DNA of 51,992 nt from a virus (taxonomy: Duplodnaviria > Caudoviricetes): positions 1 through 51,992 of the IMG/VR virus record IMGVR_UViG_3300048586_000159; one strand, 5' to 3'. The translations under genes were made by a program, and so were the position numbers. Shown here in pieces: positions 703 through 51,281 of the stretch (position 1 is the first letter of the stretch; every line of letters starts with the position of its first letter). The notes under the pieces are model-generated. The model saw only the letters and a program-made list of their open reading frames with translations. It had not been told where the DNA came from and ran no database searches.

Positions 703-703
703 G

Positions 704-732
704 ATATATGGAAATGCTGGAAATCTGGCAAT
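704..732 (-). promoter_or_regulatory. Phage-derived sigma70-type promoter pointing into serC (ATTGCC-N17-ATATAT)
   Basis: Resembles the rhizobial CTTGAC-N17-CTATAT consensus. Same 1-nt offset from the att core as the candidate native promoter at 51282-51310. Confidence 0.6.
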
Positions 733-15985: not shown

Positions 15986-16294
15986 ATGAAAAAGATGGTT
16001 GCTGGTGCGCTGGCGCTTGGAATGCTTGCCGGATGCACAACAACAAGCCCTGAAGCCGAAGCGGTGCAGGTAGTCGGCAGCCCTCAGGCAGTGGCCGGAT
16101 GCCAATTCATCAAGAGCGTTCGTGGCGATCAGAACATGATGGGTGGCTATATGCTGCAGGGAGCCGCCTACCATGACGCCATGAACCAGTTGAAGCGCCG
16201 GACGGTCGAAGCCGGCGGCAACCGCGTCTACATGGTCAATTCGAACACGGGAATGGCTGGTTCGAATGTGATCGGTGACGCCTACAAGTGCTGA
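15986..16294 (+). CDS. Small lipoprotein (DUF4156-like), moron on the opposite strand
   Basis: Lipobox MLAGC; GCQFI..V, A...GGN.V and GDAYKC motifs; GGAGG RBS. Confidence 0.75.
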   Translation: MKKMVAGALALGMLAGCTTTSPEAEAVQVVGSPQAVAGCQFIKSVRGDQNMMGGYMLQGAAYHDAMNQLKRRTVEAGGNRVYMVNSNTGMAGSNVIGDAYKC

Positions 16295-16303
16295 GGAAGG
16301 CGA

Positions 16304-16717
16304 TCAACCCGCCTTCTTCTTCGGCGCTTTCGCAGCCAACCCCTTCAGGAGACCGGACACCCCGGCTCCATCCTTGGCACTGACCAGCACATCCGGATCT
16401 CGCTCTTTCGCCCCCTTGCCGCCCTTAGGCCGCTTGGTGCTCAAAGCAATGTCATCCAACCTTCGGATGGCCCTTGCCTCCCACGGCGCAATCTCAGCCC
16501 CTGTCAGCCGGGCGTAGGCTTCGATCTCCTGGTAGCTGATGGGATTGGCTTGCATTCCCACCTGTCGCGTCCGGTCGAGGTCCATGAACCAGTTCCAGAC
16601 GTCGACGGCTTCCGGGGGAACATCTAGATCGATGGTTGCCCTCTTTGGGCCGAAGGCGACCCCCGCATAAGCGCAGAGGTCGTCCACGATGTCCTCGATC
16701 AGTCCTTCAGAAAATTT
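16304..16717 (-). CDS. Tail assembly chaperone, GT frame (reached by -1 frameshift)
   Basis: WNWFMDLDRTR...PISYQEIEAY...PWEARAIRRLD. The frame is open back to the slippery site. Confidence 0.8.
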   Translation of the reverse strand, partial: KFSEGLIEDIVDDLCAYAGVAFGPKRATIDLDVPPEAVDVWNWFMDLDRTRQVGMQANPISYQEIEAYARLTGAEIAPWEARAIRRLDDIALSTKRPKGGKGAKERDPDVLVSAKDGAGVSGLLKGLAAKAPKKKAG

Positions 16718-17100
16718 GCGCGGTCACCCACGAATGCGTCCACCTGCTCCTTCATCCAGGGAAGGCGCTGATAGACAATCACTGCGTTCGCGGCGTTGCA
16801 GTCCAGATCCTGACCATCGAGCTTGATGCCCGACCAGGACAGGGTGCAGAAGGCGAGCAGCTGGAGGCCCTGCTCTTCCAGTTCCTCGGCGGTCATGGTC
16901 TGGCGACGGCCACCCTTGAGCCGCTTGTTCATTTCCACGCGCTGGCGCTTCTTCACCTTTTCCGAGTCTTGCCCGATCAGCGTGATCGTGATCGGCTTGC
17001 CGGCATCATCCTTCAGGACGGTGCCTTCCACGGGGTGAAGCACTTCCATAACCGCGCCTTCGTTGGCGGCCTTGGTAATATCGAGAGTTGCGAGATCCAT
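16699..17100 (-). CDS. Tail assembly chaperone G
   Basis: Lies between tail tube and tape measure genes; ends DRANFLKD. Confidence 0.85.
   Translation of the reverse strand: MDLATLDITKAANEGAVMEVLHPVEGTVLKDDAGKPITITLIGQDSEKVKKRQRVEMNKRLKGGRRQTMTAEELEEQGLQLLAFCTLSWSGIKLDGQDLDCNAANAVIVYQRLPWMKEQVDAFVGDRANFLKD
16711..16717 (-). other. -1 ribosomal frameshift heptamer A AAT TTT
   Basis: X XXY YYZ in the correct frame. A -1 slip gives SEGLIEDIVDDLCAY, continuous with the GT ORF. Confidence 0.8.
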
Positions 17101-17208
17101 TGTCGTTTCCTTTGTCGGTAGGTCGCGGCGGGGAAAGCCGACAATCCTCCCCCGCCGCTAGGCCATGGCTGTTCGTTCCGGTTGTCGGGCCGGATATCAA
17201 CGGCGAGG

Positions 17209-17796
17209 CTAGTCCAGCCAAGCCCAGCATTCTCTTCGTTGCGTTCGAGTGATCGTGGAATGGGAAACACCAAAACGCTCCGCCATCTGACGGGTACTAA
17301 GGCTCTGCGAAGACCTGCGGATTTCCCGCACGTCATCTTCAGTAAGTTTGGAGTGCTTCAACGCCGTGCCGCGCAGGAGCGTACCGTGCTCCACTTTGTC
17401 GGCGTGGTTTTCAATCGTGGTCGCCCATCGCAAGTGCTTTGGGTTCACACATCCTTCGTCGCCTTTCCCACAGGAATGCGCTGCTTCGTGCTTGGGCGAC
17501 GGCGCTGGACCGTGAGCCATCTCGCACATCATTCTGGCTGCTGTAGTGGACTGACCATTGGGCTTCTTTAACGCCCCGTAGCCGCTGACCGTTCTACCAA
17601 ACGGCCATTGAAGGCAACCATCGCCATGGTAAGAAACGTTTTCCTCAAGCCACTTTACCAAAGTGCCATTGGCTGGCTTGTGCACAATGTTGCAGTCTCC
17701 GTATCGCTGCCAGCGACGGTAGTGCATCCCGCACCATCCGCGCTTTTCAGCGGGCTTGCAGCAATTGTGAATCGAGCATAGACGGGCATTAGCCAT
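17209..17796 (-). CDS. HNH endonuclease (Zn-binding N-terminus, C-terminal HTH)
   Basis: CSIHNC...WCGMHY, CLQWPF and AAHSCG...CVNPKHLRWAT..EN motifs. Confidence 0.88.
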   Translation of the reverse strand: MANARLCSIHNCCKPAEKRGWCGMHYRRWQRYGDCNIVHKPANGTLVKWLEENVSYHGDGCLQWPFGRTVSGYGALKKPNGQSTTAARMMCEMAHGPAPSPKHEAAHSCGKGDEGCVNPKHLRWATTIENHADKVEHGTLLRGTALKHSKLTEDDVREIRRSSQSLSTRQMAERFGVSHSTITRTQRRECWAWLD

Positions 17797-17870
17797 TTCG
17801 ACCTCCACAACAGGTTGGCTTGGTTAGAGCCCGTCGAGAGGTGAGATGCTCGACGGGCTTGCTTTTTATA
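17791..17870 (+). ncRNA. Putative SymR-like cis-antisense RNA, copy 1
   Basis: AGCCAT..ACCTCC..CAGGTTGGCTTGGTTAG, then a GC hairpin and T-tract. Upstream CTTGCA-N17-ATAGAC at 17755-17783. Confidence 0.6.
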
Positions 17871-17896
17871 CCTGATGGGTGGAAGTAGAGGAAGCC

Positions 17897-18382
17897 TTAC
17901 GGCGTAAGATCAGCCGAAGGAGCCTCAATAATTGCGGTATCGATCCCCAAATTGAAAGTAGATTTTACCACATTATCCACACTCCCGTAGTTGTCGCGGG
18001 CCGACATGATTTTGGCGCCGAAGTAGTAGACGCTGTCGGAGTAGTCGGCGGATGGAGCGTCAGCCGCCTCGATCTTGATCGGGTAGCTGAACTTCGTCTT
18101 CTCCGCTGCCTTGAGAGCAACCTGACCAGCATCGAGCGGATCACGGCCGCATACAAGCGAGAGAGTGCCAGCGTCACGGACGCCCTTCAGGTGGCGTGTG
18201 CGACCGTCGCCGACAGACGAGAACGTGACGTCAGAGCTTTCGTCCCCGAACTCCCCCATGTCTTCCACTTCGCCGACTTCAATCCAAGTCAGCGCAGCGT
18301 ATTCAGAGGCAGTGTCGAGGGTCGAAACCCAAGGAGTGGAGCAGATAAAGACCTTGCTCTCAGATGCAGTTGTGATTGCCAT
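17897..18382 (-). CDS. Major tail (tube) protein
   Basis: WIEVGEVEDMGEFGD...RHLKGVRDAG...DAGQ motif; located upstream of the chaperones. Confidence 0.85.
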   Translation of the reverse strand: MAITTASESKVFICSTPWVSTLDTASEYAALTWIEVGEVEDMGEFGDESSDVTFSSVGDGRTRHLKGVRDAGTLSLVCGRDPLDAGQVALKAAEKTKFSYPIKIEAADAPSADYSDSVYYFGAKIMSARDNYGSVDNVVKSTFNLGIDTAIIEAPSADLTP

Positions 18383-18394
18383 GTGGGGTTCTCC

Positions 18395-18679
18395 TTAATG
18401 GCTGTTTGAAGAAGAGCCCTCATCGGGCGGGTTAACCGGGTTCACCGGATCTTTTGCTGCCTCTTTCGGCTTCGCTTTGCCGGGTAGAGCGCGCATTTCG
18501 GAAATGTCCGCGACTGGCACCCCGAGAGCCTCGTAGGCCTTGGCGATGTGCGGGTAATGGCCCTCGATGAAGACCTTCGATGCCCCCTCCTCGGGTTTGA
18601 GGAAGTGCCGAGGGTTCCGCACGGTTCTGCCTTCCGCATTGGCCGGAACCGAGCGGGCATAGACGATCTGCTTAGACAT
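18395..18679 (-). CDS. Hypothetical virion-associated protein
   Basis: 94-aa ORF with RBS, collinear in the structural operon. Confidence 0.65.
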   Translation of the reverse strand: MSKQIVYARSVPANAEGRTVRNPRHFLKPEEGASKVFIEGHYPHIAKAYEALGVPVADISEMRALPGKAKPKEAAKDPVNPVNPPDEGSSSNSH

Positions 18680-18686
18680 GATGTCC

Positions 18687-19109
18687 TCACTGGTTAAAGG
18701 ATACGTATTCGACGGACACGGGCACCTGGACGTAGCCCACGTCCTGCAGCGGTGATGCTACGTATGGCTTGCGGCCGATCTTCACCTTGATGCCCTGTCC
18801 TTGGAGGACGGTGCCCTTGGCGAAATGCTTGATGATGCGGTCGGCCACGTCGAGCGGCTTCGTGATCCCGGCCCCGGCCTTCCACCAGACCGAAATCTGT
18901 AGGATGCCTATGTGCTGCTGATGCCCCGAGCCCACTGTCCGCGTGATTGTGCGGTTGGGAACGAAAGTGGCTTGCAGGTAGCTATCCGGCTTCGTGCCGC
19001 CATTGGGAGGGAAGTTTACCCCAGGATATGCGATCGGAAGTGCCGGAGTGAGCGCCGCCAGCTTGCCGAGGAGCAAATCCATGATGATTGCGTCCGTGCC
19101 TACGGCCAT
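18687..19109 (-). CDS. Tail terminator-like protein (DUF4128-like)
   Basis: IAYPGVNF.P, GILQISV and VPVSVEY motifs; position before the tail tube gene. Confidence 0.75.
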   Translation of the reverse strand: MAVGTDAIIMDLLLGKLAALTPALPIAYPGVNFPPNGGTKPDSYLQATFVPNRTITRTVGSGHQQHIGILQISVWWKAGAGITKPLDVADRIIKHFAKGTVLQGQGIKVKIGRKPYVASPLQDVGYVQVPVSVEYVSFNQ

Positions 19110-19122
19110 GCTACCGGTTCCT

Positions 19123-19320
19123 ATGCCTTCAAAGCCGCCGCTCACACGCAACGAGGTTTACGATCTCATCCACGATCTGTGGGTGAGAGCCGCACGCGAG
19201 CGAGGGGCTGATGAATACAGCGAGAACACCCTGAAGGCGGTCCGCGTGTCGTTGTTTATGCTAAGCGCTGCATTGCTCAAGAAGACCGATGACGACGCTA
19301 CAGCCCAAACCGAGCTTTGA
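19123..19320 (+). CDS. Small hypothetical protein (65 aa), opposite strand
   Basis: MPSKPPLTRNEVYDLIHDLW... fills the intergenic gap; no clear SD. Confidence 0.5.
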   Translation: MPSKPPLTRNEVYDLIHDLWVRAARERGADEYSENTLKAVRVSLFMLSAALLKKTDDDATAQTEL

Positions 19321-19351
19321 CCTCTGCGGCCTTAGCCGAGACGATCTGCGA
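19298..19351 (-). pseudogene. Remnant 3' end of the gp10-like gene (SQIVSAKAAEVKARFGL*)
   Basis: Matches the current C-terminus QQIVSAQAASVKQRFGL* of 20374-20829 and begins directly after the HNH stop codon. Confidence 0.8.
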
Positions 19352-20284
19352 CTAAATCAACCAACCCCACCGCCGCCCTCTTGCAATGTCAGATACAGTT
19401 ACGCGGCTAACACCAAATCGATTTGCGATCTTACGCTGCGTCTCATGTCCAAGAAGCTTACGAATGGCGATAACATCGTCCTCGGTGAGTTTAGCCTGAC
19501 CATTTCGGGATCCTTTGTTTTCCGTACCATGAATTACTCGGTCATCCGCGTTTCCTTGAGTGGTATCCCACCGCAAATGATGTGGGTTAACGCACCCTAA
19601 ATGACCTTGCCCGCAGTTATGCGCCGCTTGATGCGTTGGCGATGGTGGATCCCCGTGCACCAGTTCGCACATCACTCTGTGAGCATAGCGCTCGCCACCG
19701 TCTGACCCACGAAGCTTTCCATACCCGCGACCGCCGCGCTTGGGTTCGTGCCTTGCGAATGGCCAGATCAAACAATCATCAGTATCCGCGTGATCAGCAT
19801 GACTCCTGAGCCATAAATCAGGCTCTCCTTTCGACGTTGCCCCCGCAGTTGCGTCACCGTACCGCAGCCACCGTTCATAATGATCACGACAGTAGCCTCG
19901 CACATGCGCTGGCGCATTGCAGGCGTCGATGCTGCACAGGCCGGAATTCTCGGCGTAATATTTCCCGCCTAGTGGATTGCCGTGATTTCTGAAGCGCTGG
20001 TAGTGCGGGTTGCAAAATCCCTTATGCTTGACCGGACGCTCACACCCGTCAACGGCGCAAGGAACGTCTTTTGGTTGATAATGCGCTCCTCCATTAGGCG
20101 AACCGTGCCTTAGAAGCCGCAGATAGTGCGCGTGGCAAAGACCCTTAGTTCTGGCCTTTTCTAGGCAACCATCTGTCGAACATAAGGGCATTTCACGAAG
20201 GGCATGATAGTGCGTAACGCACCACCCTCGGGCTAAAACAGGCTTGCAGCAACCATCAATTTTACATAGGGAATTAGTAGCCAT
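19352..20284 (-). CDS. HNH endonuclease with four tandem CxxxxC...CxxHY repeats and C-terminal HTH
   Basis: Repeats CKIDGC, CSTDGC, CAVDGC and CSIDAC; AAHNCG..GCVNPHHLRWDT..N. Confidence 0.88.
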   Translation of the reverse strand: MATNSLCKIDGCCKPVLARGWCVTHYHALREMPLCSTDGCLEKARTKGLCHAHYLRLLRHGSPNGGAHYQPKDVPCAVDGCERPVKHKGFCNPHYQRFRNHGNPLGGKYYAENSGLCSIDACNAPAHVRGYCRDHYERWLRYGDATAGATSKGEPDLWLRSHADHADTDDCLIWPFARHEPKRGGRGYGKLRGSDGGERYAHRVMCELVHGDPPSPTHQAAHNCGQGHLGCVNPHHLRWDTTQGNADDRVIHGTENKGSRNGQAKLTEDDVIAIRKLLGHETQRKIANRFGVSRVTVSDIARGRRWGWLI

Positions 20285-20357
20285 TTCGACCTCCGAACAG
20301 GTTGGCTTGGTTAGGGCCTCGCGGTGTTGACGCACCGTTTGAGGCCCGTTTATTTTA
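20279..20357 (+). ncRNA. Putative SymR-like cis-antisense RNA, copy 2
   Basis: AGCCATTTCGACCTCC..CAGGTTGGCTTGGTTAG, hairpin with GGTGTTGACGCACC, then a T-tract. CTTGCA-N17-ATAGGG at 20243-20271. Confidence 0.62.
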
Positions 20358-20373
20358 CGAAACAATCCCCTTA

Positions 20374-20829
20374 TTACAAGCCGAAACGCTGCTTCACACT
20401 AGCGGCCTGAGCCGAAACTATTTGCTGCCATCTCTGCGCAACGAGCGTCACCCACGGTCGCGGTGCCATATCCTGGGTGCCGAAGTGGACGTAGGCCCCA
20501 TATTCGGCCGTGTAGCCGAGATAAATCGTATCCCCCAGCTCAGCATCGCTGATGATCAATTCGGTCTGGCTGAAGTCCGGAGTGACTGTCACGCCCGGGT
20601 TAGACCGGTTCAAGGTGGGCATGCTGGCATTCGAAGCCATGATCGAGTCCCGGAGGAACTGGGTTCGCTTGTAGTTCGGGCTCTCCGGTGTCTCGTAGAT
20701 CATGCTCCCGAGCTGCTCATCCAGTTGCTTCACAAGCTCCTGAAGGCTCTCCTGAAAGACCGCCTCTTCGGCTTCCTTCACTCGATTGACGAAATTCCCG
20801 ATGGTTGCGGAGAACGAGAGCTTAGCCAT
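20374..20829 (-). CDS. HK97 gp10-like neck/tail-completion protein
   Basis: RTQFLRDSI and YTAEYGAYVHFGT..MAPRPW motifs. Confidence 0.8.
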   Translation of the reverse strand: MAKLSFSATIGNFVNRVKEAEEAVFQESLQELVKQLDEQLGSMIYETPESPNYKRTQFLRDSIMASNASMPTLNRSNPGVTVTPDFSQTELIISDAELGDTIYLGYTAEYGAYVHFGTQDMAPRPWVTLVAQRWQQIVSAQAASVKQRFGL

Positions 20830-21872
20830 CAGGTCGATGTCCTAGCCCGATATCGCCGCAAACCAGCCGCGATATAGTTGATTGTATAGATCGCCTGGCA
20901 TTTGCAGCCGATCTTATGGGCAGCTGGCGCGTTCGGATCATGAGGATGCATGAGCATGGTCCCATCCGGCGCGATGAACGGCTGATCCATCCTGACCGAC
21001 TGTCCTGCCATTGCGATATGCTGGATGCGCGGGTTTTCCGAACCGTTGTGCTTCCATGTCTTCGTCACGTCCTGAACAGCAATCTTGCCCGCCTCGATCT
21101 GCTGCCGGATTGCGTTGTCCCGAGCCGAGAACAGTGCGGTACGGGTTTCCTGAAGGCCGATGGTGTCGCCCCGCAGCTTCAGGTTCTTGTCGGACAGGCG
21201 GCCGATGATCTTCGAGGCCATAGCCTCATCAACCGGCGTCCCTTCCCGAATGGCCTTCAAGACAGTGCGGTCGTAGCGCTTGTCGCGCATCTTCATCGCG
21301 AGGTAGCGCTGCATTCCCTCGACGTTGCCCTCTAGGAGGCTTCCGCGTGCTCGTTCGATAAACTCCACCTGCCGAGCAGTAAGGCCGATCACGCCGCCTT
21401 CTCTGCGTCCGGTTACCCTGTTGACCCTGCCCACCACATCAAGGGCAGTCTTCGTCGGGTTCTGCCCGCGCGACAGGCCGCTCTCGAACGCGATGCGCAG
21501 CGCCTCGCGCTGATCCTCGACAATGTTCGTGACTAGCGTGGCTGCCTGGGTCCGCAGGATGCTCTCAGCGATCAGGTTGCGGACGCCGAACTGAAACAGC
21601 ACCCGCGTCCCGTCTGGAGCAACCAACTGAGGCAGGCTCTGCACCATGTTGATGCCGCCAGCGTTGAACGCTTCCTGCAATGCCAACTCAAGGGCCGCGA
21701 AAGCCTCCGGTTCAAACTGGATTGCCCGAACTGCGGCGGCAACGTCTCCGCGATCCAGCGCGGTAACAACCGTCTTGAGCACGATGTTGCTCTTGATCGC
21801 CTCGATGCTATCCAGAAAGGCAGCGGCCACGATAGGATCGTATTTGGCAAGCAGTTCGTCAAAGGTCATCAA
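20829..21872 (-). CDS. Minor head/head morphogenesis protein (Mu F/SPP1 gp7-like)
   Basis: KTWKH...PRIQH..MAGQ.V...PF...MHPHDP..IGCKC motif. Confidence 0.8.
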   Translation of the reverse strand: MMTFDELLAKYDPIVAAAFLDSIEAIKSNIVLKTVVTALDRGDVAAAVRAIQFEPEAFAALELALQEAFNAGGINMVQSLPQLVAPDGTRVLFQFGVRNLIAESILRTQAATLVTNIVEDQREALRIAFESGLSRGQNPTKTALDVVGRVNRVTGRREGGVIGLTARQVEFIERARGSLLEGNVEGMQRYLAMKMRDKRYDRTVLKAIREGTPVDEAMASKIIGRLSDKNLKLRGDTIGLQETRTALFSARDNAIRQQIEAGKIAVQDVTKTWKHNGSENPRIQHIAMAGQSVRMDQPFIAPDGTMLMHPHDPNAPAAHKIGCKCQAIYTINYIAAGLRRYRARTST

Positions 21873-21995
21873 TCACCCAATCAGCCAGCCTGCAGTTTTC
21901 CACCCGAGATGCGCGAACAGTCCCATAACGAAAGCAATCATCGCCCCGCGCACCATGAGGCGGGCCGATGTGCGGGGATGGAGGTTGTCGTTCAT
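21873..21995 (-). CDS. Small hydrophobic peptide (40 aa)
   Basis: MNDNLHPRTSARLMVRGAMIAFVMGLFAHLGWKTAGWLIG; abuts the next gene; below the ORF-track length cutoff. Confidence 0.4.
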   Translation of the reverse strand: MNDNLHPRTSARLMVRGAMIAFVMGLFAHLGWKTAGWLIG

Positions 21996-22008
21996 GCTGA
22001 TCCCATAA

Positions 22009-22032
22009 GAAAAGGCCCACCGAAGCGAGCCT
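22009..22032 (-). terminator. Intrinsic terminator after the HNH pseudogene
   Basis: AGGCTCGC-TTCG-GTGGGCCT followed by a T-run on the minus strand. Confidence 0.6.
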
Positions 22033-22057
22033 GACTAGTGTTCGATGACGAAGGCGG

Positions 22058-22711
22058 CTACCCAAGCCACCTCCATGTCTTCTGGTTAGCAACGACAAAG
22101 GCCGTCTGATAATGGATGCCAAACCGCTGAGCCATTTCAGCGTAAGGTACTCGTCCCTTATTCTCCCGCATCCATCGGACGTCATCCTCTGAGAGCTTCG
22201 AGCAATGGATGCCATCACCTTTAGGCATCGTCCCATGGTCATACTTGTCCATGTGGTTGGGCGACCTCTAAGGCTGCATCTGGAGCGCAGCCATGCGCCA
22301 ACTCGCACATAACGCGATGAGCGCCCGTCTGCCTGCCTTGGTAGGTGACTGCTCCATACCCGCCGACTGCCCCGCCATAAGGCCACAGCAAGCAGTCATC
22401 GCCATCGTGGGTGACGTGGTCCTCTATCCAAGCAATCAATGCCCCCGGTGAGGCCCGCCCACCAAGTGGCTCCCCATGGGCGCGTAGGCGCTGATAATGC
22501 CGACTGCGGCATGCCTCCCGTTGCCTACTGCGACCTTAACCGTGAACGTGCGGCTTTTTTGCTTACGCGCTGTTAGGATCTTCGGAACTTTGGGTCTTGG
22601 CCTGTTGGGACCGGAAGGCCGCCAGCTTCTTATCCGGCCGAGACTGCTGGCCTCATACCCATCATAACCCTCTACAGGGCGCCATTCTTCTGCTAGAGCG
22701 TGATCAGCCAT
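22058..22711 (-). pseudogene. Disrupted NUMOD4-HNH endonuclease
   Basis: NUMOD4 (EEWRPVEGYDGYEASSLGRIRS), then a frame change to HYQRLRAHG...CLLWPY...AHRVMCELAHG, then loss of the HSC..CVNP.HLRW core with a second frame change to NHMDKYDHGT. Confidence 0.75.
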
Positions 22712-22785
22712 CTCTACCTCCTTACAGGTGGGGCTTGGTGAGAACCCGTCGAGAGGTGAGATGCTCGGCGGGTTCGCTTTTTATA
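22706..22785 (+). ncRNA. Putative SymR-like cis-antisense RNA, copy 3
   Basis: AGCCATCTCTACCTCCTTACAGGTGGGGCTTGGT, then a hairpin nearly identical to copy 1 and a T-tract. Confidence 0.58.
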
Positions 22786-22791
22786 GCCGAT

Positions 22792-23196
22792 CTACGAAAT
22801 CAAATCCAACTCATAAAGCACCGGAACCCCTGCGGGACTCAACGGCTTTACATTGAGCAGCTCCACCCACGCGCTACTCTCGCTGGCTTCCTCAGCAGTG
22901 ATGCCAAGCGCAACCTTGTAGCTCTTGAGCGGGACGGCATCAGGATCGGCCGTCACGGTCAGCATGTGCTTGGTCTGCCCTATCAGCGTGCCGGACTGAT
23001 CCCGAATCTCTTGGTAGCCCTCCACGCAATGGAGTGTCTTGTATGTCGGCGGCTCCTCAACCGGGTCATAGGGCGGCCCGGTGATCGCGCCGGGGATGCG
23101 CAGCGTCACGGGGTAGCCATCAGCCTGAGATACGTCGCCGATGGAGCGGATTGCCTCGTCAACCTCGGCAGCTATGGCGCGCCAGTCTTCCATCAC
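22792..23196 (-). CDS. Head closure/head-tail adaptor protein
   Basis: Position; VKPLSPAGVPVLYEL C-terminus. Confidence 0.7.
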   Translation of the reverse strand: MMEDWRAIAAEVDEAIRSIGDVSQADGYPVTLRIPGAITGPPYDPVEEPPTYKTLHCVEGYQEIRDQSGTLIGQTKHMLTVTADPDAVPLKSYKVALGITAEEASESSAWVELLNVKPLSPAGVPVLYELDLIS

Positions 23197-23690
23197 GCCC
23201 TCGCGAGGAACTGAGTTGCACCGCGTGCACTGATCAGCCCCGACAGGACGCGCTCTACTTCGGTCAGCGTCGGCGCCATGTCCTCGGTGGTGGCAAACGA
23301 CCGCAGGGGCGTCCAGACGATGCCCTTGACGGCGGTGAGCACCTTCGACTGGCCAAGGACGATATCCGGCGACAGGCTGCCGGGCTTCACGAGTTCGCGG
23401 AGTGCGGCGGCATAGGTGGCGCGCTCGACTTCGTCTGGCACATCTTCCGAAGCGATTGCATTGCCCTCAGCGTCGAATGCATCAATGCGGGGCCAATCTC
23501 GGGCCTGCGAGCGCCCTCCCGTTCTCTGGCCCGGCCAGCGGCTGCGGTAGACGCCATCCAGCCATTCGGAGGAGCGTAGAAGAGCCGCCTCGCGCTTTTC
23601 GTCATCAACGCCGGCAGCGGACCAAGCCGCATTCCCGCGAGCTTCGTGATAGACGAGCGCCGCAGCGAGAGACCCGTAAATGTCCGCCAT
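23193..23690 (-). CDS. Head-tail connector (DnaT-like phage family)
   Basis: YHEARGNAAW...EAALLR...WPGQR...Q.RDWPR...VPDEV..ATY motif. Confidence 0.8.
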   Translation of the reverse strand: MADIYGSLAAALVYHEARGNAAWSAAGVDDEKREAALLRSSEWLDGVYRSRWPGQRTGGRSQARDWPRIDAFDAEGNAIASEDVPDEVERATYAAALRELVKPGSLSPDIVLGQSKVLTAVKGIVWTPLRSFATTEDMAPTLTEVERVLSGLISARGATQFLARA

Positions 23691-23920
23691 CAGCCTTCGT
23701 CTCCCGCATAGTCGCCGTTCAGCAGCTTGCGCTTGAAGGTCTCTAGCAGCCAGAGAACATCGCCGCCGTCTTTCAACCCGAGGGTCGCGCGGGCATCAAG
23801 GTTCCCGTCCTTGTCCCAGCCGATGAGGATTACCTGATCGTAGGTGCCGATTGCCTGTTCGAGCACGTTGTCCGCGCTTTTGGCTGCATCAGCAGGATAG
23901 AACATCACGATATCCGCCAC
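23690..23920 (-). CDS. Hypothetical protein
   Basis: GTG start with GAGGA RBS; stop abuts the next start. Confidence 0.6.
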   Translation of the reverse strand: MADIVMFYPADAAKSADNVLEQAIGTYDQVILIGWDKDGNLDARATLGLKDGGDVLWLLETFKRKLLNGDYAGDEG

Positions 23921-23930
23921 GGCTGGTTCC

Positions 23931-24371
23931 TCAGTTCTGGTTCTGCTCGCGGTGAAGGTCGCGCAGCGCCGCAAGGTCTTCCAGCGGTTCGCGCGGGTCG
24001 AATTCGACGTTCATGGCGGTCAGGTCGGCCTCGATCTCTCGGCGGGTTGCGCCATTGCCCGCCGTCTCGTCCTGGCGGGCGTTATGCTCAGCGTTCAGCT
24101 TGTTGAACTGCTCGACGAGCTTTTCGCGGCCGAGCTTGTGGTGAGGTGCCTTGCCGGTCGCTGCTTCGATGGCGGCACGAAGCTGCTCATCGGAGAATTG
24201 ATCGCCGCTTTCCGTTCCGAGGCAACTGGCCGCCGTCTCGGTTACCACGGCCGGCTGCCCGTCCGGATCGAACCGCGCGTCGAGGATCTTGTAGCCGGCG
24301 GCCCGCAGTTCAGCCTTCCGTTTCGGCGACACCGGATGCGGCTCGTAGGCGATCTTTCGTTCATTCGTCAT
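23931..24371 (-). CDS. Hypothetical head-associated protein
   Basis: YEPHPVSPKRKAELRAAGYKILDARF, a motif typical downstream of this capsid type. Confidence 0.7.
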   Translation of the reverse strand: MTNERKIAYEPHPVSPKRKAELRAAGYKILDARFDPDGQPAVVTETAASCLGTESGDQFSDEQLRAAIEAATGKAPHHKLGREKLVEQFNKLNAEHNARQDETAGNGATRREIEADLTAMNVEFDPREPLEDLAALRDLHREQNQN

Positions 24372-24387
24372 GGGATTTGCTCCATAG

Positions 24388-24411
24388 AAAAAGCCGCCTT
24401 GGAGGGCGGCT
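24388..24411 (-). terminator. Intrinsic terminator downstream of capsid/HNH
   Basis: AGCCGCC-CTCCAA-GGCGGCT followed by TTTT. Confidence 0.65.
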
Positions 24412-24436
24412 AAAGAATGATGTTTTCCTGTTCCGG

Positions 24437-24958
24437 TTATGCTGGGCGGAAGAACTGCCCGTGGTGCTTGACTGCGAAAGCATCTCTCGCACGGGCCGCC
24501 TCTTCGGCTGTGTCAAAAAGTCCGAGGTTCACTCGTCTTCCGCCCGCCCTTGCTCTGGCCAACCATTTCCCTGATCGGCGGTCGAAATTGACGCCCTTGA
24601 ACCCGCTGGTGTTGCTGCTCTTTAGGGGGAGGTTCGCGTTATTCTCGCGCGGTGTGGCTAAGCGAAGGTTCGCGAACCTGTTGTCCCGCTTGTTGAGATT
24701 GACGTGGTCGATCTGCTGTTTCGGCCATTTGCCTGTCATGTAAAACCATGCAAGCCGATGCGCATAATATCGATGCCCGTAAACGCTTACGCGCCAATAC
24801 CCATGGACGCCAAAGCCGCCTGCATCTGTACCGGCAACTCGCCTATGTGAATTTGTTATCAGCCACCGAAACTCGCCGCCAATTGGATCGTACTCAAGAG
24901 CTTCTTTCAGCTTCGATTGCGTAAGATCGCGCGGGGCGATAATCTCGCATTCAGCCAT
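24437..24958 (-). CDS. HNH endonuclease with AP2-like domain
   Basis: AHRLAWFY..IDHVNLNKRDNRFANLRLAT; NTSGFKGV..KWLAR..LGLFDTAEEAA. Confidence 0.9.
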   Translation of the reverse strand: MAECEIIAPRDLTQSKLKEALEYDPIGGEFRWLITNSHRRVAGTDAGGFGVHGYWRVSVYGHRYYAHRLAWFYMTGKWPKQQIDHVNLNKRDNRFANLRLATPRENNANLPLKSSNTSGFKGVNFDRRSGKWLARARAGGRRVNLGLFDTAEEAARARDAFAVKHHGQFFRPA

Positions 24959-25034
24959 CTCGACCTCCTTACAGGTGGGGCTTGGTAAGAATGGCCGGAT
25001 GTGTTGGTAGCACTCCGGCCATTCGTTATTTCTA
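24953..25034 (+). ncRNA. Putative SymR-like cis-antisense RNA, copy 4
   Basis: AGCCATCTCGACCTCCTTACAGGTGGGGCTTGGT, then hairpin GAATGGCCGGA..GTGTTGGTAGCAC..TCCGGCCATTC. TTGCGT-N17-TAATCT at 24917-24945. Confidence 0.62.
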
Positions 25035-25038
25035 CAGC

Positions 25039-26007
25039 TTATTTGGTGACATCGCCAATCGTAATCACCCCAGCCGAATGTTTAATAGAACTTGCTACGA
25101 GGTCCCAGTTGGCCCCCGTAGCAAGCTCCGCGTCGGTCGGCGACTTGCCACCGGAACCTTCATCCCATGTGAAGCCCTTGAGGCCGAGGCCGAAGGTGTA
25201 GTCCACCTGCAGGGTCGTCTCGATGCGGGTCTGACCGTTCTTCGTCTCTATGTTCGAGATGATGTCACGGCTGTCCGAGACGGTGGCGGCGTTCGCCACC
25301 AGCGACAGCACCTTGAGCTTGTTCGGCGTGCCGGCCTCGTACAGGGCGGGCGCGTCGGTGACGACGACCATCTTGCCGAGGATATCGACCACGCGAACGT
25401 TGGCGGCCTGGAACAGGGTCTGCGCATTGGCGAGGTTCAGGCCGATCAGCTTGTGATAGGCCGTACCATTCATCACCTGCGTGATGAGATTGCCGGAATG
25501 GTCGCCGAACTTGGCGTGGGCATCGTTCATGGTGATGTAGCTGACGCCGGCCGTGGCCGACACGTCATTCGTGGCCGCGGCCTGATTGCTGATCGCGGCC
25601 ACCAGCGCGGCAATGGCGCTGTTGAGCTGATCGCGAAGCAGCGCCTCGGCGAAATTGCGGGAGGCAACCTCGACGCCCTCGGCCGTCGGCTTGTCCAGCC
25701 AGGTCATCTGCGAAGGCTCATAGCGCACCGGGCCGAAGCCGCCCGCGACCTTGACCGAGGAGTGCTTGAGCTGCGTCAGGTCGGTTGCCGAAGCGCTGGC
25801 CTGAGCAGCATAGCGGTCAACGCGACGCTGAGCCGAGTGGATGGCGGCGTAGAACGATTCCTGGAGGAAGTCGCCTTCGAAACCTTCCGTGGTCAGGCGG
25901 ATCGCGCCGCCGGATGCCGCGTTGAACTTGTCGACCATCTGCGCAAGCGTCTCGATGGTGGCGGGCATGAAGTACTTGTTGAAGACCTGCATCTGCGAAA
26001 GAGACAT
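25039..26007 (-). CDS. Major capsid protein
   Basis: 322 aa after the scaffold gene; FNAASGGAIRL and GLGLKGFTWD...KSPTDAELATGANW motifs. Confidence 0.88.
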   Translation of the reverse strand: MSLSQMQVFNKYFMPATIETLAQMVDKFNAASGGAIRLTTEGFEGDFLQESFYAAIHSAQRRVDRYAAQASASATDLTQLKHSSVKVAGGFGPVRYEPSQMTWLDKPTAEGVEVASRNFAEALLRDQLNSAIAALVAAISNQAAATNDVSATAGVSYITMNDAHAKFGDHSGNLITQVMNGTAYHKLIGLNLANAQTLFQAANVRVVDILGKMVVVTDAPALYEAGTPNKLKVLSLVANAATVSDSRDIISNIETKNGQTRIETTLQVDYTFGLGLKGFTWDEGSGGKSPTDAELATGANWDLVASSIKHSAGVITIGDVTK

Positions 26008-26127
26008 GGTCGGTTCCTTTCCGTTTTCCGTGATGGGTGGGGTGTGGTTGCGGGCATTGCCCAGATGCCCGTCACCTCGTTGAGATCACGGGAGGTCGCG
26101 CCGCGCGGCGCGGGTGGTCAGGAGCAG

Positions 26128-26850
26128 TTATGCCCCGGCGCTGAGTTCGGGGAACTTCGCCGAGATGGCGGCGGCGCGGGCCTTGGCGTCTCCGCCGAAG
26201 TCACCCTTCACCGCTTGCTGCTGATGGCCGTTGTCGTTGCCCTTGGCGTTGTCGCCCTTGGCCGGTGCGACGAAGGGTTTGCCCTCGTCACCTGCGGCCC
26301 AGCGTTTGACAGCTTCCGCGATACCCATGGGCCCGAGGCCGATATCCATGGAGGCTTCGTCCGTATCCATGGCAACACGCGGCTCCAGAAGAGCGCGAGC
26401 GGCCTTGACGAACGATGGCTCCTTGATGCCAGAGGCGGAAAGAGCGTCGGTGAGCGCGGCATTGACCGCGGCCTTCTTGCCCTTGGTGACCTCGCCCTCG
26501 TACTTGCCCTTCCAGTCGTCGCGCTCGCCTTCGAGGGTTTTGCGAAGCTCGACCAGCTGGCGCTGGTGCGCCGCGTCGTCGGTCTTGCCTTCCTTCAGCT
26601 TCTTCCACGTCTCCTGGTCGAAGTCCTCGGGAGCGGCCTTCTTCTTCGCGTCGGCCAGATCGTTCTTGGCGGTCGCGAGATCGGCCTTGGTGCGGTCATA
26701 AGCGTTGGCGAGGGGGAGAACATCGCGATGGCCGCGAACGCTATCGGCGTCGGTATCCAGATGGAACTTGCCATCCGTGTGTTCGACATAGAGGGATTTC
26801 AGGGCCTCGTCGACATTGTAGATCGAGTCCAGAACGAGCTTCAGGGCCAT
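26128..26850 (-). CDS. Capsid scaffolding protein
   Basis: MALK..LDS...LY.E..DGKF.LD N-terminus and coiled coil; lies between portal and capsid genes. Confidence 0.75.
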   Translation of the reverse strand: MALKLVLDSIYNVDEALKSLYVEHTDGKFHLDTDADSVRGHRDVLPLANAYDRTKADLATAKNDLADAKKKAAPEDFDQETWKKLKEGKTDDAAHQRQLVELRKTLEGERDDWKGKYEGEVTKGKKAAVNAALTDALSASGIKEPSFVKAARALLEPRVAMDTDEASMDIGLGPMGIAEAVKRWAAGDEGKPFVAPAKGDNAKGNDNGHQQQAVKGDFGGDAKARAAAISAKFPELSAGA

Positions 26851-26897
26851 TGGCCTTATCTCCTGTTGGTGGTGGGTAGGTCGGGTTCCGACCGGGC

Positions 26898-28250
26898 TTA
26901 GACGAGCGCCGCAGCGGCTTCGTCTTCTCCGCCCTCAGGGTCGATGAGGGCGTATTCCTGTTCCGCGTCACGCTCGGGCGAGAATATCCCGCCGGCCTGT
27001 CCGCGTTCGTAGAAGGTCTCCCAGGACATGCCGTTCTGGCTGTAGACGCTGAAGAGCTGCGCGAAGTCCGCCGGCGACATGGTGCTGTCGAGCAGATCCT
27101 TTGGCGGGACCACGACGATATCGTTCTCGTCGAGCCCCTTCATTCGGGCCGCCGCCTTCAATCCGCGCTCAAGCAGCGCGGCCGAGACCTGCGATACGCT
27201 CATGAGGTTGGCTGTCTCGCTCGCGAACCGAAGCTTGCGGGCCTCCCCGCTCTCCTGCGTGGACTTCTCCTGTTCGAACATTCGGGCGCCGGCCATGACG
27301 GCGGCTTCCTTCTGCTTTTCGATTGCCGCCTCGTGAGCTTCGATGCCAGAGCATGTCGGCGAGACGTATTTCAGATCAGGCGTAACAGTGTCGTTGCCCA
27401 TCATCTGGTGCACGACGCCAGCGCCAACGGTCTTAGGTGCCTCGCCGTTGATGGCGACAAGGGTCTCCTGCCCACTCATGAAGAGCTGCCAGCGCCAATC
27501 GGCTGAAAGCTGGTAGGAGTTGATGATGGCGTTCGCGATGCCGATCAACGGCGGGGTTTCGACCGCCGGCACCACATCACGAGCATTGCCGACATAGAAC
27601 GGCACGAAGTTGAGCCGGCCGTCACCCAGAGCGACGGGCTCGGTCTTGGTGATGGTGCCGAGGTCTTCGCCCTCATAGACGGACGAGACATAGAAGCCGT
27701 CAATCAGTTCCAGCACGCGGAACTTCGGATTATCCTTCCACTCGAATCCGACTCGGCGTTTGCCGCTCTCATCAAGGACGAAGAAGTCTCGGTCCCAGTT
27801 GATGATGCTGTCGCCGGCATAGCCCGCGAGATACGGTTCGCCACCGCCAACCGGAGCCGTCGTCAAAACGCCGTAGCGGCCCAGCCAGAGCAGATATCGC
27901 GTAATGCGGCGGTGAAAGGCCTCAAGGCTCATGCCATCGCCGTCGGCATTCTCCCAGATCGACGCCAGACCATCTGGAATGGTGATCTGCGTCTCCTTGG
28001 AGTGGATGATGCCGATCATCGCCGCGACCGACGGCGAAAGCAGTTCCGGCACAATGGCGCGAAGCTTGTACGCCTTTTCGTACGCCTCCTGGCCGCCGTC
28101 GGGCATACCCTTGAAGCCAGAGGGCATCGGCAGATAGGCCACGCCCTTCTGCTTCACTGCACGCTGACCCTGCATGGCGTCCCGCATGAGACACCAGTCG
28201 GCAAGGCGATCCGCCGTCAAATCCGGGTGCTTTGTCTTCACATCGAACAT
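26898..28250 (-). CDS. Portal protein (DUF4055-like)
   Basis: Follows TerL with TAATG overlap; YLPMPSG, PPL..IA..I..YQLSAD and ESGEA motifs. Confidence 0.85.
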   Translation of the reverse strand: MFDVKTKHPDLTADRLADWCLMRDAMQGQRAVKQKGVAYLPMPSGFKGMPDGGQEAYEKAYKLRAIVPELLSPSVAAMIGIIHSKETQITIPDGLASIWENADGDGMSLEAFHRRITRYLLWLGRYGVLTTAPVGGGEPYLAGYAGDSIINWDRDFFVLDESGKRRVGFEWKDNPKFRVLELIDGFYVSSVYEGEDLGTITKTEPVALGDGRLNFVPFYVGNARDVVPAVETPPLIGIANAIINSYQLSADWRWQLFMSGQETLVAINGEAPKTVGAGVVHQMMGNDTVTPDLKYVSPTCSGIEAHEAAIEKQKEAAVMAGARMFEQEKSTQESGEARKLRFASETANLMSVSQVSAALLERGLKAAARMKGLDENDIVVVPPKDLLDSTMSPADFAQLFSVYSQNGMSWETFYERGQAGGIFSPERDAEQEYALIDPEGGEDEAAAALV

Positions 28251-51251: not shown

Positions 51252-51280
51252 CCTCGTTGGGGAGGAGTGTCCCGCCGCCG
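51252..51280 (+). repeat. att core, right copy
   Basis: Exact 29-bp match to 674-702. Confidence 0.95.
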
Positions 51281-51281
51281 T

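What the first reader, a model, noticed from the sequence alone, without database searches (positions are those of the whole stretch)
17755..25034. Four HNH endonuclease genes each carry a SymR-like cis-antisense RNA cassette over their start codon
Seen: a conserved ~80-nt element at 17791-17870, 20279-20357, 22706-22785 and 24953-25034, each within about 5-25 nt of the stop of a structural gene (tail tube, gp10-like, head closure, capsid). On the + strand each begins AGCCAT (antisense to ATG GCT) and folds AGCC/GGCT and ACCT/AGGT stems around an anti-SD ACCTCC. A GGCTTGGT linker follows, then a strong hairpin and T-tract oriented as a + strand terminator. Sigma70-like -35/N17/-10 pairs lie inside the first HNH codons at nearly constant distance (17755-17783, 20243-20271, 22670-22698, 24917-24945). 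The downstream HNH proteins belong to different subfamilies (Zn-repeat, NUMOD4, AP2). Established: E. coli SymR represses symE from this geometry. As I recall it (unchecked), SymR starts AGUCAU and has a GUGUUGGCGCAC-capped hairpin like copies 2 and 4. Inference: a portable type-I-antitoxin-like module that silences toxic homing endonucleases in the lysogen until late transcription overrides it. I do not know of this pairing being described.
Basis: partly seen in the sequence, partly recalled or inferred. Interest (0 to 1): 0.88.

Follow-up and report, generated by a model that had tools for sequence, protein, structure and literature searches.

The report
Antisense RNA module on homing endonucleases
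Four mobile DNA-cutting enzyme genes in this prophage each carry the same ~85-base module, which looks like a small antisense RNA gene lying over the enzyme gene's start; this control device does not seem to have been described for such selfish genes.

Summary
Four ~85-nt elements lie over the starts of four homing endonuclease genes (HEGs), each inserted just after a phage structural gene.

The module is a family. Pattern scans and a covariance model found it in about 60 distinct viral and genomic loci, mostly alphaproteobacterial. It precedes HNH, AP2-HNH, NUMOD4 and GIY-YIG genes.

- The two-hairpin fold is 95% paired on that strand, and 17 of 25 pairs show compensatory changes.
- About 17% of paired cells are G·U, which would be mismatches on the mRNA strand.
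- A TA sits 11-13 nt before AGCCAT in 56 of 60 members (controls 30 of 367). A TTG lies 16-18 nt further up in 45 of 60.
- This holds across unrelated N-termini. It is enforced by rare NTA codons and by reduced synonymous change in codons 1-16.

The two promoters therefore face each other, as in IS10 RNA-IN/RNA-OUT or symE/SymR.

No Rfam family matches, SymR included, so the likeness is in geometry only. No transcript data could be obtained, so function remains inferred.

The parts
17756..17784 (+). Copy 1 predicted antisense promoter: TTGCAG (17756-17761), 17-nt spacer, TAGACG (17779-17784). It lies inside codons 5-14 of HNH1.
   Evidence: Sequence. Family-wide conservation of TTG/TA at this register. 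Not listed by the generic scan.
17791..17872 (+). Copy 1 predicted antisense RNA: 5' stem-loop with anti-SD 17791-17825, terminator-like hairpin 17827-17860, T-rich tail 17861-17872.
   Evidence: strand folding gave -34.7 kcal/mol, z -4.69, against -29.0 for the - strand. CM R1 scored 83.2 bits.
17866..17871 (-). Copy 1 sense-strand -10 box TATAAA. It is the reverse complement of part of the + strand T-rich tail. The -35 here is weak (TTCCTC).
17209..17796 (-). HNH1: homing endonuclease, N-terminal Zn-ribbon type, with HNH_3 and a C-terminal HTH. Codon 6 is CTA.
   Evidence: Pfam; codon table.
20244..20272 (+). Copy 2 predicted antisense promoter: TTGCAG (20244-20249), 17-nt spacer, TAGGGA (20267-20272).
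20279..20359 (+). Copy 2 predicted antisense RNA: 5' stem-loop 20279-20312, hairpin 20314-20347, T-rich tail.
   Evidence: strand folding gave -38.6 kcal/mol, z -5.09, against -32.0 for the - strand. R1 scored 75.3 bits.
20352..20379 (-). Copy 2 sense promoter: TTGTAA, 16-nt spacer, TAAAAT.
   Evidence: Listed by the promoter scan.
19352..20284 (-). HNH2: homing endonuclease with repeated Zn-finger motifs and HNH_3.
   Evidence: Pfam.
22671..22699 (+). Copy 3 predicted antisense promoter: TCTACA (22671-22676), 17-nt spacer, TAGAGC (22694-22699).
   Evidence: Copy 3 was not in the 60-member set because of the regex used; the hexamers were read by eye.
22706..22787 (+). Copy 3 predicted antisense RNA. 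The sense -10 box TATAAA lies at 22780-22785 (- strand).
   Evidence: strand folding gave -37.6 kcal/mol, z -4.00, against -27.4 for the - strand. R1 scored 74.6 bits.
22058..22711 (-). HNH3 remnant, a broken and chimeric HEG. A NUMOD4-type N-terminus (about 30 aa) is followed, in other reading frames, by the core and C-terminus of a Zn-ribbon-type HNH gene.
   Evidence: Pfam NUMOD4. tblastn pieces in frames 1, 3 and 1.
22013..22032 (-). Sense-strand terminator-like hairpin after the HNH3 remnant.
24917..24945 (+). Copy 4 predicted antisense promoter: TTGCGT (24917-24922), 17-nt spacer, TAATCT (24940-24945).
   Evidence: Synonymous sites of codons 1-16 are conserved: 75/87 identical codons against 38-54% elsewhere.
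24953..25034 (+). Copy 4 predicted antisense RNA.
   Evidence: strand folding gave -39.3 kcal/mol, z -5.10, against -31.2 for the - strand. R1 scored 70.8 bits.
25029..25058 (-). Copy 4 sense promoter: TTGGCG (25058-25053, inside the last capsid codons), 18-nt spacer, TAGAAA (25034-25029).
24437..24958 (-). HNH4: HNH_3 plus AP2-domain homing endonuclease.
   Evidence: Pfam.
24385..25038 (-). Extent of cassette 4 relative to empty sites. It includes a sense terminator-like hairpin at 24411-24392.
   Evidence: Relatives L078, L079, L081 and L083 go from the capsid stop straight to the next gene. L080 and L082 have the same flanks with a different HEG. Terminator.
17198..17896 (-). Approximate extent of cassette 1. 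It is absent from relative L078.

Best explanation
Each element is a compact regulatory module that travels with a free-standing homing endonuclease gene (HEG).

On the HEG (window -) strand it supplies three things: a sigma70-type promoter (TTG-N16-18-TAnAAA/T), a leader, and a Shine-Dalgarno site followed by ATG GCT.

On the opposite (window +) strand it encodes a small RNA of about 80-85 nt. This RNA is predicted to start at the A of AGCCAT, which is ORF position +6. Its promoter lies inside HEG codons 5-14.

The RNA folds into two parts:
- a 5' stem-loop that carries the anti-SD CCUCC;
- a GC-rich terminator-like hairpin whose T-rich tail is the complement of the sense -10 box.

The two promoters therefore face each other, and the two transcripts overlap over the whole HEG leader, SD and start codon.

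Inferred mechanism. The antisense RNA pairs with HEG mRNA, whether that mRNA comes from the HEG's own promoter or from read-through of the structural operon. Pairing would block ribosome binding and perhaps trigger duplex cleavage. Convergent transcription may also interfere with the sense promoter. Together these would keep a potentially harmful nuclease low.

Cross-talk. The first ~35 nt are nearly the same among cassettes, so the RNAs of the four copies could act on each other's mRNAs. That would be copy-number control of the kind shown for IS10.

Shown here: the repeats, the family, the strand of the structure, the covariation, and the nucleotide-level constraint at the promoter positions.

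Inferred: that the RNA is transcribed, where it ends, and that it represses.
For: 1. Family. The first viral scan gave 29 stretches (30 matches). All show hairpin, leader and (A/G)TGGCT followed by an endonuclease-like ORF. A looser scan gave 93 stretches. The genome scan gave 44 stretches: 11 with full anatomy, 1 variant, and the rest chance matches.

2. Strand of the terminal hairpin. It is more stable on the antisense strand in 64 of 72 members, with G·U pairs 120/988 against 24/872. In the 60-member set the figure is 56 of 60, with a mean difference of 6.2 kcal/mol. In 496 control windows inside the same ORFs the difference is 0.0 (248 against 241).

3. Strand of the 5' domain. It is more stable on the antisense strand in 42 of 42 distinct leaders, with G·U 122/467 against 22/398.

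4. Covariation on the antisense alignment A4. 95.1% of cells are paired, against 82.3% in shuffles (0 of 500 reach the observed value). Compensatory changes occur in 17 of 25 pairs. Slid controls reach at most 51%. By my addition of the pair types in that table, 252 of 1472 cells are G·U.

5. Antisense promoter signal. TA lies 11-13 nt before AGCCAT in 56 of 60 members, against 30 of 367 control ORF starts from the same loci. The full TTG-N19-21-TA motif occurs in 45 of 60 against 5 of 367. For the non-Zn-ribbon ORFs alone the counts are 21/24 and 11/24 (Fisher 6e-18 and 1e-11). Taking one member per ORF 5' cluster gives 34/36 and 26/36.

6. Nucleotide-level constraint. Codon 6 of the Zn-ribbon class is NTA in 35 of 36 (ATA, CTA, TTA, GTA), against 18.5% NTA among Ile/Leu/Val codons elsewhere. 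Four homologues without the element have no NTA at that position. Identical codons given identical residues: codons 1-16 75/87 against 38-54% elsewhere (AP2 type); codons 2-15 69% against 31-43% (Zn-ribbon type).

7. The four window copies fold at -34.7 to -39.3 kcal/mol on the + strand (z -4.0 to -5.1), against -27.4 to -32.0 on the - strand.

8. Sense promoter. The TA peak is at -46 to -43. TTG lies at -68 in 18 of 59, and within -70 to -66 in 34 of 59. Taking one member per upstream-flank cluster, the full motif occurs in 33 of 58. One case is listed by the generic scan.

9. Portability. Empty sites exist in relatives, and a different HEG sits between the same flanks in L080/L082. Twelve of 80 capsid relatives carry one copy, nine of them right after the capsid gene.
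Against: - No transcript evidence. No RNA holder was usable, and the contigs that were laid give no strand or ends.
- The antisense hexamers are weak against the E. coli consensus. None of the four passes the generic scan, which found 3 promoter-like sites against 3.2 expected by chance in the region. Most Zn-ribbon members lack a T at the last -10 position.
- The T-rich tail is interrupted. The longest T run is usually 3-4, and the tail begins G-C/T. Termination there is therefore not assured. The generic scan did not call the four hairpins as terminators.
- In the Zn-ribbon class the TTG comes from a conserved Cys-x-Lys/Asn protein motif, so part of that signal may be protein-driven.
- The excess identity of the first 15 codons could partly reflect recent exchange of the 5' module by recombination (the HNH3 chimera). 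It could also reflect constraints on translation initiation.
- The sequences are related to one another, so the Fisher tests overstate independence.
- In Rhizobium phage RHph_N3_2 the HEG lies opposite to its neighbours. A strong + strand terminator there would sit inside the flanking operon.
Confidence: 0.62

Rival explanations
1. Sense-only module. The element is just the HEG's own promoter, a 5'-terminal stabilising stem-loop and an SD-presenting or SD-sequestering mini-hairpin. No functional antisense RNA exists. The T-rich box is only a -10 element.
For: A sense TTG-N17-TAnAAA promoter is supported. The small ACCU/AGGU helix around the SD covaries: CGAAC/GUUCG, ACAC/GUGU, ACCC/GGGU, GACU/AGUC. 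Watson-Crick covariation fits either strand. T4-type HEGs are known to be controlled by RBS hairpins (PMC2988022, passages read).
Against: It does not explain the G·U excess on the other strand. About 17% of paired cells would be A·C or C·A mismatches in the mRNA. It also does not explain the position-specific TA/TTG and rare NTA codons inside unrelated ORFs, or the synonymous-site constraint in codons 1-16.
Confidence: 0.12
2. Recombination or insulation module. The conserved block serves mainly as a shared homology patch for swapping HEG cassettes (PeSL-like). The + strand hairpin merely stops stray antisense transcription from running into the structural genes. Any small RNA made has no regulatory role.
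For: The same 5' element and 3' flank hold different HEGs at one site (window against L080/L082). HNH3 is a chimera joined near codon 30. Metagenome contigs show joints between parts of different copies. PeSLs are described as composite promoter/terminator motifs that mediate exchange between unrelated sequences (PMC4122927, abstract read).
Against: Homology patches do not need a conserved RNA fold with compensatory changes and G·U pairs on one strand. They also do not need a promoter-like TA/TTG kept through synonymous rare codons. A mere insulator would not need a promoter of its own just upstream.
Confidence: 0.13
3. A small RNA with another job. The + strand RNA is real, but it acts mainly in trans on other targets through its anti-SD loop. 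Candidates are HEG mRNAs of co-infecting phages, or host or phage mRNAs. Alternatively it takes part in the homing reaction itself.
For: The 5' stem-loop is nearly invariant across loci while the terminator stem varies. Antisense RNA of IS10 acts in trans and matters chiefly at high copy number (PMC5006887, passages read).
Against: The RNA is perfectly complementary to the adjacent HEG leader and is always placed over its start. No other target was sought or found here.
Confidence: 0.1

Closest known systems
symE/SymR type I toxin-antitoxin pair of E. coli
   Same: The antisense RNA comes from a reverse promoter inside the target gene. Its 5' part covers the SD of the target mRNA, and translation is blocked (PMC3874152, passages read). 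The predicted geometry here is the same.
   Different: There is no sequence or structure match to any Rfam family, SymR included. The targets are His-Me/HNH and GIY-YIG homing endonucleases, not SymE. The module is mobile and phage-borne. Toxicity and repression were not tested.
IS10/Tn10 RNA-IN / RNA-OUT
   Same: A mobile element limits its own DNA-cleaving enzyme with a ~69-nt cis-encoded antisense stem-loop RNA. The first 35 nt of that RNA pair with the translation initiation region. pIN and pOUT face each other. Changes in the pIN region affect RNA-OUT stability. The RNA acts in trans, giving multi-copy inhibition (PMC5006887, passages read).
   Different: There is no homology (no Rfam hit of any family). 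The protected gene is a homing endonuclease in a phage, not a transposase. The overlap here is about 80 nt and includes a separate terminator-like hairpin.
Reverse promoters and antisense RNAs of the EcoRI and Eco29kI restriction-modification systems
   Same: Convergent promoters inside an endonuclease gene give antisense RNAs that lower endonuclease expression (PMC3874152, passages read).
   Different: In those systems the promoters lie deeper in the gene and belong to R-M operons. No conserved portable structured RNA family is described there.
RBS-sequestering hairpins of T4-type homing endonuclease genes (I-TevI, segB, mobE)
   Same: HEG expression is restrained at the translation initiation region by RNA structure, combined with promoter choice (PMC2988022, passages read).
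   Different: That control is cis structure in the mRNA, with a late promoter inside the hairpin. In the passages read, antisense transcripts are mentioned only as a possible side effect of insertion. Here the better structure is on the opposite strand, and the sense promoter lies upstream of both helices.
PeSL promoter/stem-loop cassettes of T4-like phages
   Same: Small conserved promoter-plus-stem-loop motifs flank variable genes and mark points of exchange (PMC4122927, abstract read; PMC2839356, seen in the search listing only).
   Different: PeSLs occur in T4-like myoviruses, in hyperplastic regions, and are not tied to HEGs. No antisense RNA is proposed for them. Here the module overlaps the gene start and shows strand-specific RNA covariation.

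Membership tests
Rfam SymR (and any other Rfam 15 family) | Match to the family covariance model at or near its gathering score. | tested here: not met
   The gathering scan of the whole window gave only the serC leader. An E<=10 scan of 17600-25200 gave 5 hits. At the elements these were Plasmid_R1162 at 20.4 and 19.8 bits (gathering 55) and ctRNA_pGA1 at 17.8 bits (gathering 45). SymR did not appear.
symE/SymR-type cis-antisense control | A reverse promoter inside the target ORF, with the antisense 5' part covering the SD and start. | tested here: met
   This is met at the level of sequence signals only. TTG-N17-TA sits in codons 5-14, 6-7 nt before AGCCAT, in all four copies and in 45 of 60 family members.
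symE/SymR-type cis-antisense control | The antisense transcript is actually made and represses the target. | not testable with these tools
   No RNA holder was listed. The contigs laid are probably DNA and give no strand or ends.
Type I toxin-antitoxin system | The protein is toxic when de-repressed, and the RNA neutralises it. | not testable with these tools
   The products are site-specific endonuclease families. Toxicity was not assessed.
IS10 RNA-OUT-like antisense control | Face-to-face promoters with overlapping 5' regions, and a stable stem-loop antisense RNA. | tested here: met
   Met in silico. The sense promoter is supported, the antisense promoter, and the fold and covariation.
Intrinsic terminator (for the + strand hairpin) | A GC-rich stem-loop followed at once by a U-tract. 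| tested here: inconclusive
   The stem is strong and covaries. The tail has a mean of 5 T in 10 nt against 2.3 in controls, but it starts G-C/T and its T runs are mostly 3-4 long. The generic scan called none of the four full hairpins.
Sigma70-type promoter (antisense) | -35 and -10 hexamers near consensus, with a 16-18 nt spacer. | tested here: inconclusive
   The spacing and the TTG/TA cores are conserved. The hexamers match the E. coli consensus poorly and fail the thresholds.
PeSL cassettes | A composite promoter/stem-loop motif at exchange points between unrelated genes. | tested here: met
   The same element and 3' flank hold different HEGs. HNH3 is a chimera.
PeSL cassettes | Resident in hyperplastic regions of T4-like myoviruses, with an early promoter. 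| tested here: not met
   The element lies in a prophage structural module with a Gp13-like capsid and in alphaproteobacterial hosts.
T4-type HEG RBS-hairpin control | A stable mRNA hairpin sequesters the RBS, and a promoter inside the hairpin frees it. | tested here: not met
   The sense helix around the SD has only about 4 bp, and the sense leader folds at -5.8 to -10.9 kcal/mol. The sense promoter lies upstream of both helices.

The most novel reading that the evidence does not exclude
This is a widespread, undescribed family of cis-antisense small RNAs that is an integral, portable part of homing endonuclease gene cassettes in alphaproteobacterial phages.

The family spans at least HNH_3/Zn-ribbon, AP2-HNH, NUMOD4 and GIY-YIG genes.

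Its design is unusually economical. The two promoters face each other. The antisense promoter is written into the first 15 codons of whichever nuclease is attached. The antisense terminator tail doubles as the sense -10 box.

The 5' stem-loop is nearly identical between cassettes. The RNAs would therefore cross-repress, giving HEGs a copy-number-sensing brake like IS10 multi-copy inhibition. That could explain how one prophage tolerates four such nucleases.
Probability: 0.5. Interest if true: 0.82.

Novelty: new variant of a known kind. Interest (0 to 1): 0.75.

Why it matters
Homing endonuclease genes are selfish DNA cutters. How their hosts tolerate them is known mainly from T4, where the controls are mRNA hairpins, promoter choice and autorepression.

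A portable antisense-RNA brake shared by several unrelated nuclease families would be a new layer of control for this class of mobile element. It would link HEG biology to the logic of type I toxin-antitoxin pairs and of IS10.

It would also add a new structured RNA family to phage genomes, one with clear covariation. Finally, it offers a compact natural example of two promoters, a terminator and a translation start packed into about 130 bp. That packing is directly testable in a cultured Rhizobium phage.

Tried and rejected
Expression data.
- The look-up of sequencing runs listed no RNA holder. It gave seven wastewater runs with small shares, kept as contigs.
- Read laying on X1-X4 showed contigs marked 'probably DNA', with no strand or end information. 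It showed only that other members of the family occur in those samples, as joints and loose ends at the conserved core. This counts neither for nor against expression.

Early reading, later dropped. I first read the element as a sense-only promoter plus 5' UTR. I dropped that as the whole story after the strand tests.

Searches with little or no result.
- Megablast of 16000-27000 against cultured phages gave no match.
- The search for related loci with HNH1 alone gave only 3 loci.
- The weak CM hit at 38292-38347 (17.6 bits, E 0.006) lacks the leader. I took it as chance.
- A simple search for a sense terminator after each HEG found one in only 15 of 60. Those hairpins showed no clear strand bias (6 against 8). 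That control is therefore weak.
- I considered an integron attC-like reading of the hairpin by eye and dropped it without a test. There is no array and no adjacent integrase.

Literature. Searches for an antisense RNA on homing endonuclease genes gave no such description in the listings. A search for the 11-nt core motifs returned only unrelated primers. Supplementary files were not consulted.

Rows left out.
- The regex required xAxCCA or xTxCCA before GCC. It therefore missed members whose linker reads CTCACC or CTGACC: window copy 3, L005, L006, L013, L026 and L029.
- It also dropped hits within 130 nt upstream or 100 nt downstream of a contig end, and hits without a hairpin of -14 kcal/mol or better.
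- Of 85 rows, 13 lacked a hairpin and were set aside. Some, such as L165/L174/L178 and L171/L181/L197, share only the 10-nt core and an SD helix.
- Alignment A4 holds 58 of the 59 references (L021 was left out) plus window copy 3.

Full report
What is there.

All genes between 16 and 28 kb lie on the - strand. Four elements of about 85 nt sit at 17791-17875, 20279-20362, 22706-22790 and 24953-25039. They share an almost invariant core and a variable GC-rich hairpin.

Each begins 4-26 nt after the stop of a structural gene:
- major tail protein;
- tail completion/Neck1;
- head closure Hc1;
- Gp13-like major capsid.

Each overlaps the start of an endonuclease gene:
- HNH1: Zn-ribbon N-terminus, HNH_3, HTH;
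- HNH2: repeated Zn fingers, HNH_3;
- HNH3: NUMOD4 N-terminus;
- HNH4: HNH_3 plus AP2.

HNH3 is broken and chimeric. About 30 NUMOD4-type residues are followed, in other frames, by the core and tail of a Zn-ribbon-type gene.

The window is a virus record of 51,992 bases, a prophage with host flanks.

The cassettes are insertions.

Eighty loci with a related capsid gene were fetched. In L078, L079, L081 and L083 the capsid stop is followed by a short hairpin and then the next gene. Cassette 4 (24385-25038) is therefore an insertion. Cassettes 1 and 3 are likewise absent from L078.

L080 and L082 carry the same 5' element and the same 3' terminator at the same site, but with a different (Zn-ribbon) endonuclease gene. 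L084 carries a homologue of HNH4.

With the covariance model, 12 of the 80 loci have one copy. Nine of those lie directly after the capsid gene. None has more than one copy within the fetched flanks.

It is a family.

- A gapped pattern from the core found 29 viral stretches (30 matches). All have the same anatomy.
- A looser pattern found 93 stretches.
- In one genome per species the pattern gave 44 stretches. Eleven have the full anatomy and one (Polaromonas) is a variant. The other 32 lack the flanks.
- The named hosts are Rhizobium, Shinella, Pseudaminobacter, Rhizorhabdus, Henriciella and one Stutzerimonas.
- Five of these genomes hold 1-4 copies each, clustered together.
- One cultured phage, Rhizobium phage RHph_N3_2, has a canonical copy (70.6 bits) over the start of its annotated HNH endonuclease gene.

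Of 60 ORFs that follow the element, Pfam gives HNH_3 in 36, AP2 in 6, and GIY-YIG, NUMOD4 and Phage_integrase in 1 each, at E<=0.001. A divergent copy precedes an 80-residue ORF of unknown kind.

Which strand carries the structure.

I first read the element on the gene's strand as promoter, 5' hairpin, leader and SD. The strand tests changed that reading.

- Terminal hairpin. It is more stable on the opposite strand in 64 of 72 members, with 120 G·U pairs against 24. In the 60-member set the figure is 56 of 60, with a mean difference of 6.2 kcal/mol.
- Control. In 496 windows inside the same ORFs there is no bias (0.0; 248 against 241).
- 5' domain. It is more stable on the opposite strand in 42 of 42 distinct leaders.
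- Covariation. On the antisense alignment A4, a two-domain structure is 95.1% paired, against 82.3% in shuffles (0 of 500 reach it). Seventeen of 25 pairs show compensatory changes. Slid controls reach at most 51%.
- G·U content. Adding up the pair types in that table, 252 of 1472 cells are G·U. These include an invariant G·U, and U·G and G·U pairs that alternate between members. All of them would be mismatches in the mRNA.
- The four window copies. They fold at -34.7 to -39.3 kcal/mol on the + strand, against -27.4 to -32.0 on the - strand.

A promoter inside the coding sequence.

Anchored on AGCCAT, a TA dinucleotide lies 11-13 nt upstream in 56 of 60 members, and almost nowhere else within 30 nt. 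Among 367 other ORF starts from the same loci it occurs in 30.

The full TTG-N19-21-TA arrangement occurs in 45 of 60 members against 5 of 367 controls. In the 24 members whose N-termini are not of the Zn-ribbon kind the counts are 21 and 11. Taking one member per ORF 5' cluster gives 34 and 26 of 36.

Several observations point to a constraint on nucleotides rather than on the protein:
- In the Zn-ribbon class the residue at codon 6 varies (Ile, Leu, Val), but the codon is NTA in 35 of 36. NTA makes up 18.5% of such codons elsewhere in these genes.
- Four homologues that lack the element have no NTA at that position.
- Synonymous sites are unusually conserved in the first 15-16 codons. In the AP2 type, 75 of 87 codons are identical, against 38-54% elsewhere. 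In the Zn-ribbon type the figure is 69% against 31-43%.

The caveats are real:
- The hexamers are poor by the E. coli consensus, and none passes the generic scan.
- In the Zn-ribbon class the TTG coincides with a conserved protein motif.
- Exchange of the 5' module by recombination could inflate identity.
- The sequences are not independent.

A second promoter, on the gene's strand.

A TTG lies 16-18 nt upstream of it, in flanks that are otherwise unrelated.

- The TA peak is at -46 to -43.
- TTG lies at -68 in 18 of 59, and within -70 to -66 in 34 of 59.
- Taking one member per upstream-flank cluster, the full motif occurs in 33 of 58.
- Copy 2's promoter is listed by the generic scan.
- At the capsid site the -10 box sits at the very edge of the insertion, and the -35 falls in the last capsid codons. 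There, three occupied alleles read ATT where three empty ones read ATC.

The box thus seems to serve twice: as the sense -10 and as the T-rich tail of the antisense hairpin.

That tail is T-rich (mean 5 of 10 nt, against 2.3 in controls) but interrupted. Termination there is plausible, not shown.

How it most likely works.

The two promoters face each other about 110 bp apart. The two transcripts overlap across the whole leader, the SD and the first two codons.

By analogy with systems that have been tested, the antisense RNA would block ribosome binding on HEG mRNA. It might also expose the duplex to cleavage, and convergent transcription might interfere with the sense promoter. The analogues are symE/SymR and the EcoRI reverse promoters (PMC3874152, passages) and IS10 RNA-OUT (PMC5006887, passages).

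The first ~35 nt are nearly the same between copies 1 and 2 and between copies 3 and 4. Cross-repression between cassettes is therefore conceivable, as in IS10 multi-copy inhibition.

Whether late read-through from the structural operon overrides the brake is speculation.

Comparison with what is known.

No Rfam 15 family matches. The only hits at the elements are chance-level ones to two plasmid antisense RNA families. 'SymR-like' therefore holds for geometry only.

Known HEG control in T4-type phages uses mRNA hairpins, promoter choice and autorepression (PMC2988022, passages). PeSL cassettes share the idea of a portable promoter/stem-loop at exchange points (PMC4122927, abstract). They are not tied to HEGs or to an antisense RNA.

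My searches found no description of an antisense RNA on homing endonuclease genes.

Verdict.

The core of the interpretation, an antisense RNA unit that travels with HEGs, is well supported by comparative evidence but lacks any transcript data.

The SymR kinship is not supported. A facing sense promoter must be added to the picture.

I rate it a new variant of a known kind of control and of high interest.

Noticed in passing
window 674-711 and 51252-51289; 647-699 (-): A 38-nt direct repeat (92% identical) lies near both ends of the window. One copy overlaps a serC leader (RF00517, 68.4 bits). These look like attL/attR of the prophage, which would then be integrated at the serC leader.
   Followed up: no
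window 21873-21995 (-): The insertion that holds cassette 3 also carries a 40-residue hydrophobic ORF (MNDNL...GWLIG), between the cassette's terminator and the next gene. Relative L078 lacks it. Its function is unknown.
   Followed up: partly
window about 19100-19320 (+): A small ORF lies on the opposite strand between the tail-completion and tail-terminator genes. It is also present at the same place in relative L078, so it is not part of cassette 2.
   Followed up: partly
window 25053-25060; L078-L084 about 6950-6960: At the capsid C-terminus the three occupied alleles (window, L080, L084) read ATT, which creates the TTG of the sense -35. Three empty alleles (L078, L079, L081) read ATC. This could be co-conversion with the cassette or selection for the -35.
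   Followed up: partly
window 43060-43310 and 46908-47158: A 251-nt direct repeat at 74% identity, with copies 3.8 kb apart.
   Followed up: no
L165, L174, L178, L227; L171, L181, L197: The 10-nt core TAACCAAGCC, followed by a covarying SD helix, occurs without the terminal hairpin in two other groups of viral contigs. One group is AT-rich and has a TAGAAT/TATAAT box just upstream. These may be distant relatives or chance matches.
   Followed up: no
L235 (G002:C22:780625-780700): A solitary terminator-type hairpin with the T-rich tail but without the 5' stem-loop or an adjacent ORF start. It is possibly a remnant of a lost cassette.
   Followed up: no
L248 (MN988526.1 18234-18912): In Rhizobium phage RHph_N3_2 the HEG with its element lies opposite to the flanking lysis and downstream genes. 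The predicted small RNA therefore runs with the neighbouring operon there.
   Followed up: partly
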